DNA of 64,000 bases from Anolis carolinensis (taxonomy: Eukaryota): NCBI RefSeq assembly GCF_035594765.1, contig NC_085846.1:6249190-6313189 (forward strand). Reading direction: 5' to 3'. The notes below the pieces were generated by a model. That model was given only the letters and a program-made list of their open reading frames with translations. It was not told where the DNA came from and did not search any database. Below are positions 778 to 36,617 of this stretch, piece after piece; the first letter of the stretch is position 1, and every line of letters starts with the position of its first letter. The position numbers were made by a program, and so were the translations under genes.

Positions 778-1026
<249 letters not shown>

Positions 1027-1179
1027 TGAGGCAGCGCTTGCCTAGTTGGCATTCATGGGGGGGGGGGGGGCTCTAACTGTATTTACCACAGAGGCTTCAC
1101 TTCAAATTCATCTCAGTTCATGCCTGGTTGGGGGATTCTGGGAGTTGTAAGGGTTTTCTTTCAGGCTCTGCCATTGTAA

Positions 1180-1813
<634 letters not shown>

Positions 1814-3091
1814 TAAAGCAAATGAAAAAATCAGAACAACAGCCTTAGCAGGAGGAATTCCATGGCCACTTCCAGTTTTTCAAGTCAGGAGATGCAGAAT
1901 TACTATTAAATATATTAGGATACAAAGCCCAGACATAGATCTTCACTATTAAAGGGAGTTCTTTGGCCAAAAGGGTATCTAAGACCACTTTTTCCATATT
2001 GGGGGTTGGGATTATGGGGGAAGGCTCAGTGAAAATGGTGAGCCAGATTATTATGATGCGAACTGCAGTATCTTACCGTATTTATATCAGTCTGTATAGT
2101 GGCCAACCTTGAAGCTTGGGGTATAGTTCGGATCATAAGGAGGTGGGAAAAGGTGCAGAAAAAACACGTAAAGTATCATATATACTCGAGTCGAATGCGC
2201 CATCAAATCAAATGCACACTTCAATTTTCAAAACCCCAAACCCAAAAAAAGTATTTTCTGCAAAATGTAATGTGCAGGAGCAAAAGGCGCACTTTTTGTC
2301 ATTTGGCCATTATGGTTGCTGCCTGCTTAGAATTCCTTCTTTAAAAACAAAAGTGTTAGGACAGCAAAGCTTCCAGCAATTGAAAAAAAAATTGGGGTGC
2401 ATCTATGTTGTAGAATGAACCCACTTTAATTTTCCAGCAATCGAAAAGAAAACCTTGGGATGCATCTATGCTGTAAAATAAATCCACTTTAATTGCTGTG
2501 GTTCTGTGCTGTGGAATCATGGCGGCTGTAGTTTGACAAGGCCTTCAGCCTTCTCCGCCAAAGAGTGTGGATGCCTCCCTCACCAAACTACAAATCCCAG
2601 GATTTCATAGCATTGATCTATGACAATTACATTACAGATGACACCACTCAAATAGGAGCTCCATTTGCTCCTGAAATATCTTCCCCTTTTGTTTTGACTT
2701 GGCACTAAGACTACCGTATTATGAGAATCTAATGTGCACCCTAATTTTGGCCAGATAAATTAGACAAAAAAAAGATGAGCGTTAAATTCAAGTAAATGCA
2801 GTAATAATCTCCCTAAAAGCCAACTGAGTTTGCAAAACGTGAGCAGGACGGTTCATAACCAAGATTCTGAGCAGTCTCCAGCTTGTAAGGTTGCTGTATT
2901 TAGCCAGCTTGATAACAATAATACCAAGGAACAACTTCCCCACAAAAAGTTACATATTGGGGCTTTTAGGCTGAAAAAATGAATGCAGTGGAAAACGGTC
3001 TACAAAGTGTGAAGAAAGTGGGGCAAGGCATTGTTTTCCTGCCTCTCTCCTGCAACCGAGACCCATAAAGGATGTTTGGCAATCCACCTGA

Positions 3092-3253
<162 letters not shown>

Positions 3254-3904
3254 TGAGTTGGGGCCTGATTGTTTTGCATGGTCTCTGAGCAATCCCTCAT
3301 CTTCCAGACCCTCATACTTGGGGACAAGGGTCACTTGATGGCTGGAAAGATCTGCTACTGTAATGTATGGGATCGTACCTGCATGTGTGTAATTTAAGGG
3401 GAGACGTGGTCCATGGGAGGATAGTGTAGAATCTGCTCTTATGTTGGCCAACCTCTGAGTATATCTCAGACATGGGCAAACTTGGGCCCTCCAGGTGTTT
3501 TGGACTTTAACTCCCACAATTCTGAACAGCTGTGGAATGGTTGAACAGAAGCTCTCTGAAGCTTTAGGTGCTCTTACTGCCTATTACAGGGGAAACCAGC
3601 TGATTCCTAATCCATCTAAAACTGTGCTGTTAGGAATTGTGGGAGTTGAAGTCCAAAACACCTGGAGGGCCCAAGTTTGCCCATGCCTGGGATATCCCAT
3701 CTCCATTCAGAAGTTACGGGCATCAGTTCCTAGTTGCTCTTATGGATGTCAGTTCGTCTTACCAGCCTAGTGAGGAGGGATCATGGAGGTTGTACTCTGG
3801 TGCATCTGGGATGGAGAGGGGTTACATTCAGTATAGTTTTGTGTAATTCCTCACAGGTTGATGTCGATATGTCTTGTTCACCTTCCCTGTTCTCTCCCTC
3901 CCAG

Positions 3905-4031
3905 GTATTGTCTGATGCAGTCAATAAAGCACTGTCAGGTCCAGCGCGAGAGCCTGGTGCGGTCCGGGAAGAAGATCGCCTACCAGGGCCGGGTGAAGGA
4001 CGAGCCGGCCTACTACTGCAATGAGTGTGAC
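3905..4031 (+). CDS. KDM6B: KDM6B coding exon ([16 protein letters not shown]...YYCNECD; first CxxC of zinc-binding domain)
   Basis: cccag acceptor, gtaggt donor. Confidence 0.96.
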
Positions 4032-6992
4032 GTAGGTTTCCGTGTCTTTTTGGCCTTCCTTTGCCGCAGCGGCTGTGAGTGAGCTTGTGTCCGTTCTGCA
4101 GTTAGGTGCCAGACACGTCTTTTATTTTGTTCTTGTACTTGCTCTTCCTCCTCAGTTGGGCACTGCCATTCCTCCACAGCGGTGCTGTGCCCACAAAATG
4201 GCAGTGTAAAAGGGCATTTCCCGTTCTGAGACAGTGGCTGGACCATTCTCCTGCTGTCCCAAAATGCCGTGGCCGAACAAATCTGTGTTTGATCCGTCGT
4301 TCCTTTCGCCTTCACTTCCAATATGGGAGCTCCTTTTTGCCTTCGCTTCACACTCATATGCTGTGAACTGTGCCCCGTTTCTCATGGGGAGACGTTCCCA
4401 GCAATCTCTAATGACTACCATGGGTTTCCCTCCTGCCAGGAAGCAATCTGACAGGCTGGTTTTATTCCCTGCCATGAACTTCTTGGAGTAAACTCTTCCC
4501 AAAAATGGAAAGAGGCCCAACTTCCAGGGGTTATCCGTATGCCCTGTGGTGTGAACAATGTTTTTTCTGAGACCTGTTTGTCTTTAAAATGCCTCCTGTA
4601 CCCACATGTAGTTTGATGTTTCCATGCCTGAGAGTGCTGAGGAGCAAGAAAAACCATAAGCAAGTAGAAGGGTCAAACAGTGAGTATGAATTATGTGTTT
4701 TTAAAAAACGGCGGTGAAGAAGAAAATCAGTCTGAAGACAGATTGGAGTTCCAGCTGCAGGAATGGAAAAGAATACACAGATATCACATTGAATAGATTT
4801 TTCGACCAATGTGGCACCGTGAACACAGTGCTGAAAATTCAGATAGAAGACTCTCATTTCTCCTGGGATGAAATGGAAGACTGAGGTGGCAAGACAAAGA
4901 AATGGAAAAAGAGAAGAGGTCTTACAACAGGGCAACAGTCCGGTGACAGGTTTGTCTCATACAGAAAGCCTGCTGAGAAGAAAGGTAAAGGGTCTCAAAG
5001 GAGAGAATGGGAAGAAAGGCTCAGCAAGGTGACAAGAAGGCAATACATCACAAATATCTCCGGGCAACCAGCTTGGATAGAGATGACTGAGCAACCCTGA
5101 AGTAGCTGGCAGGATTGCCTTATTTGAGCCAAGTTCACCAGCTCTTCCAGAAGTGGACACAGATTTGACTTAAGCCAGGAAGAAATCTTAGCAAGCTCCT
5201 TCAAGACGGGACATGGAAGATTTGACTAAATTGAGAAAGTCAACCAAGAATGCAGATGAAGCAGGGAATTGGCAAATAGAGCAGTAGTTGAGTTCAGTTT
5301 AGGGGTGCCCTAAATAAGGAATGAAATCGTTCATAAGAGACGAAATGTCAAGACAACTTGGACTACCACATCTGAAGGAAAGAAGCCACACTTTCCAGAG
5401 TATCCACAACTGGATGCACTCCTGATACTGAGCCCAGTCGTTGCCCTGAGTGGAAGCCAGGGCTGGATCACATCAAACAATTCCTCCGAAAGATGCATAG
5501 GGCAAAGCAGACAAGACACCTGGACATCAGATGCACTCTGGTCCCTAAGGTGTGGCCAGGACCTGCCAGAATAGCAAGTCTTTGTGTAGATGTGATTCCA
5601 GTGAGATGCGTAAAATCAAAAACGGGATGAAGAAGAGAGGCTCAATACCTGGATTTTGTCATTGGTTAGGTGCAGCTTGCCATTGGGTTGTAATGTGGAA
5701 GAAAAGTCTCTGTGGTGGGGTTTGTTTTAAACAGAAAGCCAGAGAAGAAATAAACTCCTTCCCTCTCCGTTCTGTGTTTGTCTCGTTCTTCCATGGTTCT
5801 CCACTTGTAGCTCTCTTCATAGCCTCACCCTCTAGAAAGAAATCCTGCTGTAACGCCATGTTTTCGTCGCTCTTCTTTCTTTGCTGGGGTCCTCTGTGAT
5901 CCTGGCCCTTTGAAATTCCTGCCATTTCCCAAGGAGTAGCCATGGCCTCTTCCTCACGATCCAGTTACAGCTGTTTCATACTTCTCTTACCGTCGAGGCT
6001 TTATCCTATGGAATCCAATGGTTTATAGTTTGGCGAGGCACTGGAGCTCTTTGGCAGAGAATTCTAAATACTTCCCCAAACTACAAATCACAGAATTCCA
6101 CAGCATGGAGTTATGGCAAATAAAGTGGTATCAAACTGTTCTCATTGTGTGGTGTGAAAGAGACCCGAATTAACCTTTTTTCAGGAAAACAGAACATTCG
6201 TATAGCACCTTAAAAGACAAACAAGTTTATCCTCTAATTGTTTACAGGATTCTGTTTGTTTGTTTTTTCCTGTTGTTGTTTTTCTGCTTCTTGTCTGTGT
6301 CTTTGCATAACCAAGATTGCAGTAAGCACGAATGTGGTTTTTTTGGACTACAACTCCCACAATCTCATGCCCAGCATGACTATGGGAGTTGTTGTCCAGA
6401 ACTACGTAATGACACATTGTAGCCAATCTCTCACTTTAGCTAATAAAACAGAAATGATTTGCAAATGTGTAAGAAGAATTATGCATAACAGGATAATTCT
6501 AAATCACACATTTTCCTTGCAGGCTAAAATTAATGGATTTTTTTTCCTCCTTGGGTTTAGCAAGCATGGATTTCTTTAATTGCTGGAACTTTGTACTCAG
6601 CAAAATGTAGGGGGAGCACAGGGATGGAGTCTGGAAACAGCTTGGAAAAGTTAACTTCTCCTCTCTCCTTTTGGACAACAATTCTCAGAATCCCCCAGTC
6701 AGCCACGGGTATCTTGGGGATTCTGAGAGTTGTCGTCCAAAACAAAGAGTGGGAAGAAAAAAATTGCTCTTCTAAGGTCTGACAAATTCCACCAGGACTC
6801 TTCTTCCCTGTTTACTTTCTGAACATTGATGGAGCCAGGCTCTTTTTATTCCACAGGATAGTCCCCGTCAATTCAGTTTCTCAGCCCTTCCTCTTTTCCA
6901 ACACTCGGCATCGATTCACGAAGAGTGGAGAAGGGCTGAGGCCCCGTTCCCTTTTTTGGCAGGCACCTGACCTCCACGTGTTCCCCCCACAG

Positions 6993-7163
6993 GTGGAGGT
7001 GTTCAATATCCTCTTCGTGACGAGCGAGAATGGGAGCAAGAACTCCTACCTGGTGCACTGCGAGGCCTGCGCCCGCAAGCGCAACTCCTCCCTCCACGGC
7101 GTAGTGGTGCTGGAGCAGTACAAGACGGAGGAGTTGATACACATCTACGACAGCTTCACCCTG
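6993..7163 (+). CDS. KDM6B: KDM6B penultimate coding exon ([10 protein letters not shown]...HCEAC...YDSFTL; second CxxC)
   Basis: ccacag acceptor, gtgagt donor, 171 nt phase 0. Confidence 0.97.
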
Positions 7164-7367
7164 GTGAGTCTCCCGGACTATGACCATTCGCCAACACTAA
7201 AGCCTGAAGTAAATCATACAGGAATATGTTGAAGAGAGTAAGAGCCAGACACTATACACCAGGCATAGGCCAACTTCACCCCTCCAGGCTGTTAGGAGTT
7301 GTTGGAGTTCAAGTTTCAAAACACCTGGAGAGAGAGCTGTAGTTTGCCCATGCCTGATTTTGGTGTA

Positions 7368-8088: not shown

Positions 8089-8112
8089 GCTACATCGCCC
8101 AGCTCCAGATGA
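8089..8112 (+). CDS. KDM6B: KDM6B last coding exon (ATSPSSR*)
   Basis: Long polypyrimidine tract plus tag acceptor; resembles human C-terminus APASTSR. Confidence 0.88.
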   Translation, partial: ATSPSSR

Positions 8113-16514: not shown

Positions 16515-17202
16515 ATATAGATGGTTATTCCAATTTTTCATTGTCATTTTTTTGTGTCTTTCCACCCCTGCTTGTCCTGCCCAACTCATACTTTTGAACA
16601 ATTCTTGTTCTTTTGCTTTGATTCTGGTGTCACCCATTACTCCCATTAATAGCATATCTAAATCTAAATATTTTCTCTATCATTTTAAAAAATCTTTTCC
16701 CAGAAGGGCATTACCTTTGGGCATTCCCATCACATGTGGGAATAACATCCCTTATTTTTTCTGCAATACCAACACTTTGGGTTTAATCCCTTTGGTTTGA
16801 CAAGTCCTTGAGCCTTCTCTGCTAAAGAACGCCGATACCTTACCAATGTAGAAATTCCAGGATTGCATAGCATTGAGCCTTGGCCATTTCATTAGAGATG
16901 AGGTCCCTCAGAGAGGGGCTCCAGGTGCAACACCATAACATGGATAGGGATGTGTATGTTGCCACCTTGGGCACACAAATCATCTTGAGATTGTATTTTA
17001 TTCATATCCAGGAGATGTGAAAATAGGTATGGGCAAACTCTGGCCCTCCAGGTGTTTTGGACTTCAACTCCCACCATTCCTAACAGCCTACCGGCTGTTA
17101 GGAATGGTGAGAGTTGAAGTCCAAAACACCTGGAGGGCCAAAGTTTGTCAATGCCTGCTTTAAAAGATGTGTTCTCTCCTCTCTTGATCTTTCTCTCTCC
17201 AG

Positions 17203-17469
17203 TTCTTACACACCCAGGCCTCCTACTGCACGGCCCACTTGCACGACTCAGCCTCGGTGGCCCTGCTGGTGGTGGGCTTCACGCTGGCCGTGCCACTCCT
17301 GGTCCTGGCCCTGGCCGCCTACTGCCGCTTGGCCCGCCGCCTCCAGCTGGGCTACTGCCTCGTCCCGTACAGCAAAGCCGTCTACAAGAACCTGCCAGCC
17401 TCCCAGTACCATAGCTCCGGATGCTGCTGCACGCAGGACCTCGACCCTGTGGAAAAGGTCTGGGTTTGA
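17203..17469 (+). CDS. TMEM88: TMEM88 exon 2 (FLHTQASYC...RRLQLGYCLVPYSKAVYK...EKVWV*)
   Basis: Polypyrimidine plus cag acceptor, phase 0; C-terminal VWV Dishevelled-PDZ-binding motif; total 171 aa. Confidence 0.93.
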   Translation, partial: FLHTQASYCTAHLHDSASVALLVVGFTLAVPLLVLALAAYCRLARRLQLGYCLVPYSKAVYKNLPASQYHSSGCCCTQDLDPVEKVWV

Positions 17470-19455
17470 GGAAGGGGTGGCTACAGGGGGACGTGGGTTA
17501 GGGATTGAGAATGTCAAACTCTGAGGAAATGGCTTCCCTCCCCTTCCAAATGAAGGGGGGCTACTACATTGTATATCAGACCTGTTCCCAAGCCTTGGGA
17601 CTTGCTTGTGCATACTACTGTTGTAAACGCAAGAGGTGTGACATCCGACCAAGAGATCTCTGGACGCAGTAAACACAAAGGAGGAAACAAGAAATGGAAG
17701 ATTCGGCCAACTGCATCGGTGTCAAGACTTCCTCCCAAAGCCTGCCAACAATTCTGCTGGCAAAGACAACAGGAAAGACTTTTGTGTCGTTGTGGGGTAA
17801 AAGTAGCAACAAATCCCTTATGGATGCAAATACTCACGCCCCTGTGCCTTCCAGCCCCATAGAAGATAGATCTTAAAGGCCCAGAGAACTTGTAAAGTAC
17901 AATTTTTTGTACTGGAGGTGAATGGATAAATCACCCCTGCTTTTCTATATTCTGGGGTCTAACTGGTGGTAGTAGATATTAGTGCCTTTATCTCACTTCT
18001 TCTCTTGAGCACAACTGTTAATGCCAGAAATGGGGGAAACATGGCCTGTATGCCAAATATGGGCCCCCAGCTTCTTGTATTACGGTCCTCAACTGCTTTG
18101 ATCCTTTTTGTAAAACACTGCATGTAGGTTATTCAAGTAAAGCTGGTGAAGGCACAAAAGCAGTGCTTGGCTTCCTAAGGAGTCTCCAAATTTATCAAAA
18201 ATATGCAAAGAACCTTAGTTTCATATGAAAGGGTTGTTTGAAAGGTGGAAGGGAAAGAGGAGGGGATTTCGGCCCAGCAGAAATGCCTATGGAACTCACT
18301 GCTCCATGAAACTGCTCTTATATATGTAAGCCCTTCACTTGTATTATGCTATCACCTCTTTAGCTAATGTATATACCCCAAATCCATATGCAGTTTGCGT
18401 GTTCATTTCATCTAAACATTATGTCAGTGAATGGAATTTGTACAGTTCTGTCCATATACAGACTATAACTTTGTTACACACCTCTGTGTGTTTTCATTTT
18501 TTTTTTCTATCCCTTTTTTCTCCCCTGGGTTTGATAAGGAACTTCTGCAAACTGAGGTTTTTGGTTATGAAAAGAATGATGTCTTTCTCTTCTCTGCCAC
18601 AATTGTGTGACAAGAGAAAAATTCATTGGGTAATGCTTTTATGAAGGTGTGACCTGAGCTCAGAAAACTTCATTGTTTTAGAACTGCTGTTCCCAAGGTC
18701 CCTGATTACAGCATATTCTGGAAACTGCAGTGTAAATTAAGAACTTTTCCAAACTTTGCAATCTTCTCAGAATCTCCAGCCAATAAGCTAGATATTCCAC
18801 TAGCAATGCTTGTCCTGATACAGAGATGTAAGCAGTGCTTCAAAAAGTTCTTTTCTTGGCCTATAATTCGCAGAATCTCCCAAAGCCTGAATGACCACTG
18901 GTGATTCTTGGAGTTCTGTTCTCCAAAAATCAGCTTTCTCTCACAACTTTTAACAGAAAACATTTGCAGAAATGGGATGTAGATCTCGAAATAGAGGGGC
19001 CGAGTCCGGAAAGGACACTGACAACTAACTGATGGGCCATCCGTTCGCGTGGGGTCAGAGCGGAGAATATCCTGTTCCAAACAGGATAAGGAAGAACTGA
19101 GTCAGCTCCGGGCGCCAAAAGGTTCTTATGGAAACGCCATGTTCTGGAGAGGAAGGAACCTTGGATAAGATAACACGGTTCTCTTGGCTCCCACAAGCTC
19201 CCCATTGTGGTGTGGGGCCATCTATCTATAGATACCATTTCCTGCCTTATGTGCAATCAATGCAGCGGCCCCAGGGGTCAGTGCATTGGGAGGAGAAGGC
19301 AAAAGTTCAATCTGTGCACAGGCTGAACATCTCTAATGCAAAATGTTTGGGGATAGCAGTGTTCGGGATTTCAGATTTGGGGATATTATTCACATATATA
19401 CAATTAGATATCTTGGAGGTTGAAATAGGAGATTCATTGATGTCCCATATACATA

Positions 19456-33850: not shown

Positions 33851-36617
33851 ATAGAATCATAGAATCATAGAATCATAGAATAGTAGAGTTGGAAGAGACC
33901 ACATGAGCCATCTAGTCCAACCCCCTGCTAAGAAGCAGGAAATCGCATTCAAAGCACCCCCGACAGATGGCCATCCAGCCTCTGCTTAAAAGCCTCCAAG
34001 GAAGGAGCCTCCACCACGGCCCCGGGGAGAGAGTTCCACTGTCGAACAGCTCTCACAGTGAGGAAGTTCTTCCTGATGTTCAGGTGGAATCTCCTTTCCT
34101 GTAGTTTGAAGCCATTGTTCCGTGTCCTAGTCTGCAGGGCAGCAGAAAACAAGCTTGCTCCCTCTTCCCTATGACTTCCCTTCACGTATTTGTACATGGC
34201 TATCATGCCTCCTCTCAGCCTTCTCTTCTGCAGGCTAAACATGCCCAGCTCTTTAAGCCGCTCCTCATAGGGCTTGTTCTCCAGACCCTTAATCATTTTA
34301 GTCGCCCTCCTCTGGACGCTTTCCAGCTTGTCAACATCTCCCTTCAACTGTGGTGCCCAAAATTGGACACAGTATTCCAGGTGTGGTCTGACCAAGGCAG
34401 AATAGAGGGGGAGCATAACTTCCCTGGATCTAGACGCTATTCCCCTATTGATGCAGGCCAGAATCCCATTGGCTTTTTTAGCAGCCGCATCACATTGTTG
34501 GCTCATGTTTAACTTGTTGTCCACGAGGACTCCAAGGTCTTTTTCGCACACACTGCTGTCAAGCCAGGCGTCCCCCATTCTGTATCTTTGATTTCCATTT
34601 TTTCTGCCGAAGTGAAGTATCTTGCATTTGTCCCTGTTGAACTTCATTTTGTTAGTTTTGGCCCATCTCTCTAGTCTGTCAAGATCGTTTTGAATTCTGC
34701 TCCTGTCTTCTGGAGTGTTAGCTATCCCTCCCAGTTTTGTGTCGTCTGCAAACTTGATGATCGTGCCTTCTAACCCTTCGTCTAAGTCGTTAATAAAGAT
34801 GTTGAACAGAACCGGGCCCAGGATGGAGCCCTGCGGCACTCCACTTGTCACTTCTTTCCATGATGAAGACGACGCATTGGTGAGCACCCTTTGGGTTCGT
34901 TCGCTTAGCCAATTACAGATCCACCTAACCGTAGTTTTGTCTAGCCCACATTTTACTAGTTTGTTTGCCAGAAGTTCGTGGGGGACTTTGTCGAAGGCCT
35001 TACTGAAATCCAGGTACGCTACATCCACAGCCTTCCCTGTATCGACCCAACTCGTAACTCTATCGAAAAAAGAGATCAGATTAGTCTGGCATGACTTGTT
35101 TTTGGTAAATCCGTGTTGACTATTAGCAATGACCGCATTTGTTTCTAAGTGTTCGCAGACCACTTCCTTAATGATCTTTTCCAGAATTTTGCCTGGTATT
35201 GATGTGAGGCTGACCGGACGGTAATTGTTTGGGTCGTTCTTTTTTCCCTTCTTGAAGATAGGGACCACATTCGCCCTCCTCCAATCTGCTGGGACTTCTC
35301 CCGTTCTCCAAGAACTCTCGAAGATAATTGCCAGTGGTTCTGAAATAACTTCCGCTAGTTCCTTCAGTACTCTTGGGTGTAGCTGATCTGGCCCTGGGGA
35401 CTTGAATTCGTTTAGAGAGCCCAAGTGTTCCTGGACAACTTGTTTCCCTATTTGGGGTTGGATTTCCCCCAATCCTTCGTCCATTCCGTGTTGCTGAGGT
35501 TGAAGATGGCTTTCTTTTTCTGAGAAGACCGTGGCAAAGAAGGCATTAAGTAGTTCTGCCTTTTCCCTGTCCCCTGTCGCCATCACCCCATCTTCTCCTT
35601 GCAATGGCCCTATCGCCTCCTTTTTCTTACTTTTTCTACCAACGTAAGCAAAAAAGCCTTTTTTGTTGTTTTTTATGTCCCTGGCAAGCCTGAGCTCATT
35701 TTGCGCTTTAGCCTTGCGAACCTTTTCCCTACAGGTGTTGGCTATACGTTTGAATTCTTCTTTGGTGATTTCTCCCCTTTTCCACTTCTTGTGCATGTCA
35801 CTTTTGAGCTTTAGCTCAGTTAGAAGTTCTTTGGACATCCATTCTGGCTTCTTTGCACTTGTCTTATTTTTCTTCTTTGTTGACACTGTTTGCATTTGCG
35901 CCTTGAGTATTTCACTTTTGAAAAACTCCCATCCATCCTTAACTCCCTTGTTTTTTAATATCGGCGTCCATGGAATGCCGCTCAGTAATTCCTTCATTTT
36001 TTGGAAGTCAGCTCTCTTAAAGTCCAGAATGCATGTTTGACTTGTCTTAGTTTCAGCATTCCTTTGTATTGCAAACTGCAGGAGCACATGGTCACTTGCC
36101 CCTAAGGATCCAATCACTTCAACTGTATTGATCAGGTCTTCCACATTTGTTAAGATTAGATCAAGAGTTGCTGATCCCCTTGTTGCCTCTTCTACCTTCT
36201 GGACCATAAAATTATCTGCAAGGCAAGTGAGGAATTTGTTGGACTTTGTACTCTTGGCTGAGTTTGTTTTCCAGCAGATATGGGGATAATTGAAATCGCC
36301 CATGACTACTATATCTCTTCTTTGTGCCTGTTTGGTCAGCTGTTGACAGAAGGCTTCATCAAGTCCTTCATCCTGACTCGGAGGTCTGTAGTAGACACCC
36401 ACGACAAGATCTTTTTGAGTCCCGGTTCCCTTGATTCTTATCCAGATGCTTTCAAGCTGGTTTCCCGGATTACAGTCTTGCATTTCTTCTGCAACGTAAC
36501 TGTTTTTGACATATAAAGCTACTCCCCCTCCTCTCCCCTTTGTTCTATTTCTGTGAAAGAGGTTATAGCCCTCAATGGTTAAATTCCAGTGATGGGAGTC
36601 ATCCCACCAGGTTTCAG
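33851..36617 (-). mobile_element. CR1 LINE, 5'-truncated, uninterrupted ORF2 (partial APE endonuclease + RT)
   Basis: 844-aa ORF 33949-36483 with VMGDFN, SDH, GVPQGS and KFADD; frame stays open to 36615 (ETWWDD); (ATTCTATG)n 3' tail at 33851-33880. Confidence 0.97.

What the first reader, a model, noticed from the sequence alone, without database searches (positions are those of the whole stretch)
4032..6992. KDM6B intron splitting the zinc-binding domain looks like a regulated (retained or alternatively polyadenylated) intron
Seen: unlike other introns here, its first ~1.9 kb has no recognisable TE and has exon-like composition, with a strongly purine/GAAGA-rich stretch (~4640-5400) and extra consensus donors (GTGAGT at 4075 and 4680, AAG|GTAAAG near 4984). 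Read-through gives ...[21 protein letters not shown] (stop 4080-4082), which removes the second CxxC. Established: temperature-associated intron retention/truncation of KDM6B (JMJD3) and JARID2 is reported in reptiles, and CLK kinase/SR-protein control of temperature-sensitive splicing is known. Inference: this may be the regulated intron, with GA-rich SR-binding or decoy-exon elements as the cis-acting switch, retained even in a lineage with genetic sex determination. I cannot confirm the intron number from this window.
Basis: partly seen in the sequence, partly recalled or inferred. Interest (0 to 1): 0.7.

Follow-up and report, generated by a model that had tools for sequence, protein, structure and literature searches.

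The report
Lizard KDM6B retained intron 18
This intron of the lizard histone-demethylase gene KDM6B stays unspliced in part of the RNA while the upstream introns are removed; it is the counterpart of the intron already known to be kept at low temperature in dragons, turtles and alligators, and here it likely acts as a cold-sensitive brake on making the full enzyme.

Summary
Window 4032-6992 is the second-last intron of KDM6B. By exon landmarks it is 'intron 18' of the bearded dragon, whose cold-linked retention is reported in dragon, turtle and alligator; a skink retains what is probably the same intron. In 4 of 4 RNA-like runs (4 studies; all picked because they hold the intron) upstream introns are spliced while this one is covered from the exon onwards. 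Read-through stops at 4080-4082 and loses the second CxxC. The donor is the weakest of 11 scored. The GA-rich block is real, single-copy, with no coding or transposon signal found. The 'switch' idea is not supported so far: extra donors occur at chance density, and the co-regulated JARID2 intron has no such block. Small new detail: four clustered A>G changes in a repeat hairpin at 6008-6025 look like ADAR editing. Temperature dependence in this species, nuclear location and cross-species conservation could not be tested. Verdict: new member of a known kind; modest interest.

The parts
867..1015 (+). KDM6B exon matching the dragon's exon 14 (four in-frame Met codons); numbering landmark
   Evidence: PMC9020659 says exon 14 holds four in-frame AUGs
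3905..4031 (+). KDM6B exon 18 (dragon numbering); ends in the first CxxC (CNEC) of the zinc-binding domain
   Evidence: spliced to upstream exons in 4 of 4 runs
4029..4039 (+). True donor GAC|GTAGGTTT; weakest predicted U1 pairing (-5.4 kcal/mol) of 11 KDM6B donors scored, next weakest -5.7
   Evidence: prediction
4032..6992 (+). Retained intron, 2,961 nt, second-last intron, counterpart of dragon intron 18
4080..4082 (+). In-frame TGA reached 16 codons into the retained intron; 3,081 nt upstream of the end of the next exon
4075..4080 (+). GTGAGT donor-like site; no use seen, density of such sites at chance level
4680..4685 (+). GTGAGT donor-like site; no use seen
4640..5400 (+). Purine/GAAGA-rich block, single-copy, non-coding; candidate SR-protein landing pad (untested)
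6003..6106 (+). Hairpin of a short interspersed repeat (repeat 6006-6139); A>G changes at 6008, 6017, 6018, 6025 in RNA-like contigs, likely ADAR editing
6341..6401 (+). Second repeat-like hairpin (window fold z -8.2)
6669..6742 (+). Third repeat-like hairpin, 30-nt arms, 90% complementary (window fold z -5.5)
6993..7163 (+). KDM6B exon 19; carries the second CxxC (CEAC), lost on read-through
8089..8112 (+). Coding part of the last exon (ATSPSSR, stop); its junction lies downstream of the early stop

Best explanation
This is the lizard's copy of the known reptile KDM6B retained intron: it stays in part of the otherwise spliced transcripts and puts a stop before the second half of the zinc-binding domain, and it likely works as a cold-favoured detained intron that holds transcripts in the nucleus until warmth releases splicing. 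Shown here: identity of gene and intron, selective retention from the exon boundary onwards, early stop. Inferred: full-length retention (from contig lengths); slow splicing because the donor is weak; temperature control through cold-active CLK kinases and SR proteins (from other reptiles); nuclear holding rather than translation, because the stop lies far upstream of a later exon junction and an exported transcript would be expected to undergo nonsense-mediated decay. Untested: which sequence inside the intron, if any, carries the control; the GA block is a candidate (about 0.25).
For: Gene: spliced model 479 of 505 alignment columns identical to dragon KDM6B; exon 6993-7163 hits KDM6B structures best (E 2e-24, against 3e-17 for KDM6A). 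Intron number: a 4,944-nt intron (dragon intron 9: 4,704), five exons later an exon with four in-frame Met (dragon exon 14), then 3905-4031 as exon 18; distance between the two introns 7,521 nt here, 8,062 in dragon. Lengths: dragon 3,217, alligator 3,114, turtle 2,426, here 2,961. Retention: 4 of 4 runs show GT..AG joints over the four upstream introns at depth 119.8, 42.7-79, 45.8, 90.3, and intron contigs from 4004 to the end of the laid stretch (6240) at 11.8, 15.2, 22.7/12.9, 16; unique parts of upstream introns 0 in three runs, 7.1-8.7 in the fourth. In X1 and X2 the contig is 3,019 nt, which would end at 7022, 30 nt into the next exon. A turtle RefSeq isoform (P0277) ends in this intron. 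Literature: retention only at low temperature in embryos of three reptiles; reversible within 2 days in turtle (PMC10560553); reptile CLKs peak at 25 C, are inhibited at 35 C, and CLK inhibition lowers JARID2 retention (PMC12795684).
Against: The runs were found by searching with the intron, so they show that retention occurs, not how often. They are only guessed to be RNA and carry no temperature or tissue record. Contig depth is a poor measure of level, and contigs do not phase upstream splicing with retention on one molecule. Adult dragons showed the opposite sex-reversal pattern to embryos, and alligator brain KDM6B retention was low and not temperature-dependent (PMC7715621). The CLK inhibition result concerns JARID2, not KDM6B. 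Orthology rests on exon landmarks, not on aligning the intron between species.
Confidence: 0.7

Rival explanations
1. The GA-rich block and nearby cryptic sites are the cis-acting switch: phosphorylated SR proteins bound inside the intron, or a decoy exon, block its removal in the cold.
For: GAAGA excess over background and over shuffles; block single-copy and free of detected repeats; two strong acceptor-like sites at 4070 and 4156 close to the weak donor; decoy exons regulate retention of introns over 1 kb (PMC7373989, search listing only); intron length similar across reptiles.
Against: The JARID2 counterpart in the same genome (1,724 nt) has at most 49% purine per 500 nt and 4 GAAGA, against 65% and 17, and shares no stretch with E<0.6. 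Donor-like sites at chance density; acceptor-like sites 2.0 per kb against 0-2.0 in controls. No cross-species evidence could be had.
Confidence: 0.25
2. The retained transcript is exported and translated into a truncated KDM6B that keeps the JmjC domain but lacks half of the zinc-binding domain.
For: Proposed as an option for the dragon; a review notes that the high abundance suggests escape from decay (PMC11346455); the tail here holds two cysteines (CRSGC).
Against: Of 120 fetched relatives (of 158 hits), 18 read into this intron and none has a tail like this one, so the tail is not conserved. The stop lies 3,081 nt before a later junction.
Confidence: 0.15
3. Unregulated slow splicing: a long intron with a weak donor near the 3' end is simply caught unspliced.
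Against: Upstream introns absent in 3 of 4 runs; the same intron switches from about 0.26-0.59 to under 0.006 between 28 and 36 C in dragon embryos; far above all other introns in skink.
Confidence: 0.12
4. The intron mainly serves intronic cleavage and polyadenylation.
For: AATAAA at 5749, 6119 and 6442; the first is followed by a U/GU-rich stretch.
Against: AATAAA density 1.0 per kb against 0.95 in control; contigs run through 5749 in 4 of 4 runs and through 6119, and by length reach the next exon in X1, X2 and X7. Contigs drop rare forms, so a minor isoform is not excluded.
Confidence: 0.07
5. The 5' 1.9 kb is an old transposon remnant (I suspected a DIRS-type gag) and the GA richness is its decayed reading frame.
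For: Purine-rich sense strand; one frame (4705-5571) has 6 stops against 15 and 19 (shuffle P 0.02, limits chosen at stops).
Against: No second copy in the genome; no Pfam family in six frames; 0 of 147 gag-like proteins hit at E<0.01; profile finds no domain; frameshift-aware score 18.2 (+) and 21.0 (-) against shuffles 13.5-22.0, positive control 189; no match to 20 tyrosine-recombinase element loci outside the 6006-6139 repeat; no codon periodicity.
Confidence: 0.1

Closest known systems
kdm6b intron 18 of Pogona vitticeps and its alligator and turtle equivalents (PMC5470834, PMC9020659)
   Same: Same gene, same position by exon landmarks, similar length (2.4-3.2 kb), selective retention, early stop removing zinc-finger residues.
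   Different: Another lizard; temperature dependence not measured here. The parts of these papers that I read describe no element inside the intron and no editing.
Kdm6b intron 22 of the skink Bassiana duperreyi (10.64898/2026.06.15.731768)
   Same: Retained in a lizard with sex chromosomes, in all sexes and tissues examined; second-last intron if exon 24 is the last (inferred from the figure legend).
   Different: Numbering differs; sequence not compared.
JARID2 intron 15 (11) retention in reptiles
   Same: Co-regulated, intron before zinc-finger exons, also repeat-free in this genome.
   Different: Not paralogous; no GA-rich block and no shared sequence here; CLK dependence reported for JARID2, not KDM6B.
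Detained introns (Boutz et al. 2015, PMC4281565; abstract and section headings seen)
   Same: One internal intron far more abundant than its neighbours; a subset answers to CLK inhibition.
   Different: Nuclear location, half-life and CLK response not tested here.
Decoy-exon-regulated retention (PMC7373989; search listing only)
   Same: Long intron with internal splice-like sites that give no visible joints.
   Different: No enrichment of such sites and no conservation evidence here.

Membership tests
Reptile KDM6B temperature-linked retained intron | Gene is KDM6B | tested here: met
Reptile KDM6B temperature-linked retained intron | Same intron as dragon intron 18 | tested here: met
   exon count from the 4.9-kb intron and the four-Met exon
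Reptile KDM6B temperature-linked retained intron | Retained above neighbouring introns in RNA | tested here: met
Reptile KDM6B temperature-linked retained intron | Early stop that truncates the zinc-binding domain | tested here: met
   TGA 4080-4082
Reptile KDM6B temperature-linked retained intron | Retention rises at low temperature | not testable with these tools
   runs carry no temperature record
Reptile KDM6B temperature-linked retained intron | Intron sequence conserved across reptiles | not testable with these tools
   no other reptile genome held; indirect tries empty
Detained introns | Single intron left in otherwise spliced transcripts | tested here: inconclusive
   upstream joints and retained contig meet at 4004-4033 but contigs do not phase molecules
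Detained introns | Nuclear location, escape from decay, CLK response | not testable with these tools
   likely editing at 6008-6025 fits nuclear double-stranded RNA but does not show detention
Decoy-exon-regulated introns | Internal exon-like unit with clustered donor sites above chance | tested here: not met
   5.1 per kb against 3.8-5.0; acceptor-like sites within control range
Intronic polyadenylation | Transcripts end inside the intron | tested here: inconclusive
   main contigs run through the signals; contigs cannot show ends
DIRS-type retrotransposon remnant | Similarity to gag (LAP2alpha-like), RT/RNase H or tyrosine recombinase frames | tested here: not met

The most novel reading that the evidence does not exclude
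The intron is a self-contained RNA thermostat for KDM6B: a weak donor, a GAAGA landing pad for SR proteins phosphorylated by cold-active CLK kinases, and repeat hairpins whose ADAR editing marks the held transcript. If the GA block is conserved in dragon, turtle and alligator, it is the missing cis element of reptile temperature-dependent KDM6B splicing and can be deleted to test its role in sex determination.
Probability: 0.2. Interest if true: 0.65.

Novelty: new member of a known kind. Interest (0 to 1): 0.3.

Why it matters
[quoted passage not shown] The finding adds one more lizard with the retention, which fits a general reptile temperature response rather than a sex switch, as the dragon and skink papers already argue. 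It fixes exact coordinates for minigenes and names three testable parts: weak donor, GA block, edited hairpin. The core phenomenon is not new.

Tried and rejected
DIRS-gag origin of the GA block: suspected by eye, rejected. Tyrosine-recombinase elements of this genome: 20 loci, no match apart from the short repeat at 6006-6139. RRM-like look of frame 4705-4881 (recalled motif): no Pfam or PDB hit; the Atlas gave no answer. Structured RNA family: 10 Rfam matches at E<=5, none near its gathering score; the best are the repeat hairpins matching a microRNA precursor model. Donor locked in a hairpin: predicted paired at 20, 28 and 36 C alike, region z +0.45, so no thermometer signal. Conserved read-through peptide: not found. 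Orthologous introns: metagenome scan gave 2 loci at 54% identity, too distant and not analysed; a search with an intronic open frame gave 6 candidates, none at E<=1. zf-C5HC2 search found KDM5 genes, not JARID2; JARID2 was found through JmjN. Earlier findings: two look-ups, nothing. PMC8187015 is not held. One of three supplementary files of PMC5470834 could not be searched, and figures are not held, so intron diagrams there were not seen. My automatic exon model set one upstream acceptor (exon 11) a few codons early; the exon count is not affected.

Full report
Anatomy. The window holds the 3' end of a lizard KDM6B on the + strand. Exons lie at 867-1015, 1202-1316, 1621-1808, 3111-3252, 3905-4031, 6993-7163 and 8089 onwards. 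The spliced model from the upstream neighbour stretch to the stop is identical to dragon KDM6B at 479 of 505 columns, and exon 6993-7163 matches KDM6B structures better than KDM6A or UTY. The finding, 4032-6992, is the second-last intron and splits the two CxxC pairs. Read-through adds 16 residues and stops at 4080-4082. No call names the species; my guess of an anole, and so of XY sex determination, is recalled and unverified.

Which intron. Whiteley et al. (PMC9020659; I read parts 1-3 of 6 and the KDM6B and most JARID2 rows of data S1) report retention of intron 18 (3,217 nt by coordinates), a partly covered intron 9 (4,704 nt) and four in-frame AUGs in exon 14. Here a 4,944-nt intron is followed, five exons on, by 867-1015 with four Met codons, and nine exons on by 3905-4031. 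So 4032-6992 is intron 18. The spacing between the two introns is 7,521 nt here and 8,062 in dragon. The alligator and turtle introns measure 3,114 and 2,426 nt. In a skink the retained intron is number 22 within exons 19-24 (passages and one section read), which fits a second-last intron.

Retention in this species. A run search with 3900-7165 listed 14 guessed-RNA runs of 5 studies holding 0.84-0.99 of its words. I laid 4 of them, one per study, on 800-6240. All four show GT..AG joints over the four upstream introns. All four cover this intron from 4004 to the end of the laid stretch: one contig in X1, X2 and X11, two in X7. Depths are 11.8, 15.2, 22.7/12.9 and 16, against 119.8, 79, 45.8 and 90.3 for the flanking spliced contig. 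Unique parts of upstream introns have no cover in X1, X7 and X11, and 7.1-8.7 in X2. The X1 and X2 contig is 3,019 nt long, which would end 30 nt inside the next exon; that end is inferred from length. No joint at 4075, 4680 or 4985 is listed (4 joints not shown), and the contigs are unbroken there, but contigs drop rare forms.

The internal features. The GA block is real: 63.2% purine (6 of 1,744 background windows), 10 GAAGA (0 of 1,744; 7 of 500 shuffles). It has no second place in the genome (these searches miss old diverged copies), no Pfam family in six frames and no codon periodicity. I suspected a decayed DIRS gag and tested it with 147 fetched relatives by three methods; all were at chance while a positive control scored 189 bits. 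The repeat-free 1.9 kb stands out among this gene's introns but not among genomic windows, of which 16-22% are also free with my small library. The true donor has the weakest predicted U1 pairing of 11; its exonic part is the Asp codon of CNECD, present in all 120 fetched relatives. Donor-like and acceptor-like sites inside the intron are not denser than in controls. The JARID2 counterpart in the same genome (1,724 nt, identified with recalled peptide motifs and exon order) has no GA block and no shared sequence, in line with Deveson et al. (PMC5470834; parts 1-2 of 5 and passages read), who found the two introns not paralogous.

Likely editing. The only four letter differences listed inside the laid part of the intron are all A>G, at 6008, 6017, 6018 and 6025: all four in X11, two in X7 (6017-6018 uncovered), none in X1 and X2. 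A fifth A>G, at 3583, lies in a multi-copy repeat of the upstream intron and was set aside. The four lie in one arm of a repeat hairpin that holds 9 of the 623 A's of 4004-6240; three face a C in the predicted fold, the mismatch that ADAR prefers (recalled). Other copies of the repeat have A at 6008 (7 of 7) and T at 6017 (7 of 7), so reads from other copies do not explain these two; they have G at 6018 (5 of 7) and 6025 (4 of 7). No DNA of the same animals was laid, so alleles are not excluded. A search for KDM6B, A-to-I editing, reptile and temperature together found no paper.

Mechanism. Most likely a cold-favoured detained intron. Retention occurs at low temperature in embryos of three reptiles, at 0.26-0.59 at 28 C against under 0.006 at 36 C in dragon, and reverses within two days in turtle (PMC10560553, passages). 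Reptile CLKs are most active at 25 C and their inhibition lowers JARID2 retention (PMC12795684, passages). CLK controls a subset of mammalian detained introns (PMC4281565, abstract and headings). The early stop lies 3,081 nt before a later junction, so abundant retained RNA is easier to explain by nuclear holding than by export. The tail is not conserved among 18 read-through proteins, which speaks against a selected truncated protein. Against a simple picture: adult dragons differ from embryos, and alligator brain shows low, temperature-independent KDM6B retention (PMC7715621, passages and one section).

Novelty. The regulated intron is known, also in lizards with sex chromosomes. Searches for transposon or conserved-element analyses of it and for anoles (6 listings, abstracts' starts only) listed nothing that describes a cis element; most subscription papers are not in the library, and two key papers (Haltenhof 2020, Marroquin-Flores 2021) were seen only as citations. 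What this work adds is one more species, exact coordinates, a negative on decoy donors and on a shared GA block with JARID2, and probable editing. Interest 0.3.

Noticed in passing
L002:523-2304 (G000:C5:144.35 Mb): A single 594-codon open frame with a LAP2alpha (DIRS gag-like) domain, 41-55% identical to 16 proteins including bird 'LAP2A' entries; looks like a domesticated retroelement gene kept in reptiles and birds.
   Followed up: partly
G000:C4, about 78,822,804-78,822,840 (L067): The donor of the JARID2 retained-intron counterpart is duplicated in tandem (18-nt unit), giving a second donor-like site 18 nt downstream.
   Followed up: no
L025-L044: At least 88 tyrosine-recombinase matches in this genome; the 20 fetched mostly have RT and recombinase frames of retroelement type, many still open.
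   Followed up: partly
proteins P0214, P0220, P0186, P0207: Unnamed proteins of mammal-like sequence read into or through this same intron, which there is short (about 28-34 codons when in frame), against 2.4-3.2 kb in reptiles.
   Followed up: no
window 33949-36618: An 889-residue open frame on the - strand with the look of a LINE endonuclease/reverse transcriptase (family recalled as CR1-like, not tested).
   Followed up: no
window 17111-17524 and 41031-41510: Open frames that look like exons of neighbouring genes (one with a hydrophobic stretch, one acidic with a start Met); not identified.
   Followed up: no
PMC9020659 data S1, alligator sheet: The column headed for the warmer condition holds the higher retention (0.96 against 0.66), opposite to the paper's text; the headings may be swapped, so I used no direction from this sheet.
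   Followed up: no
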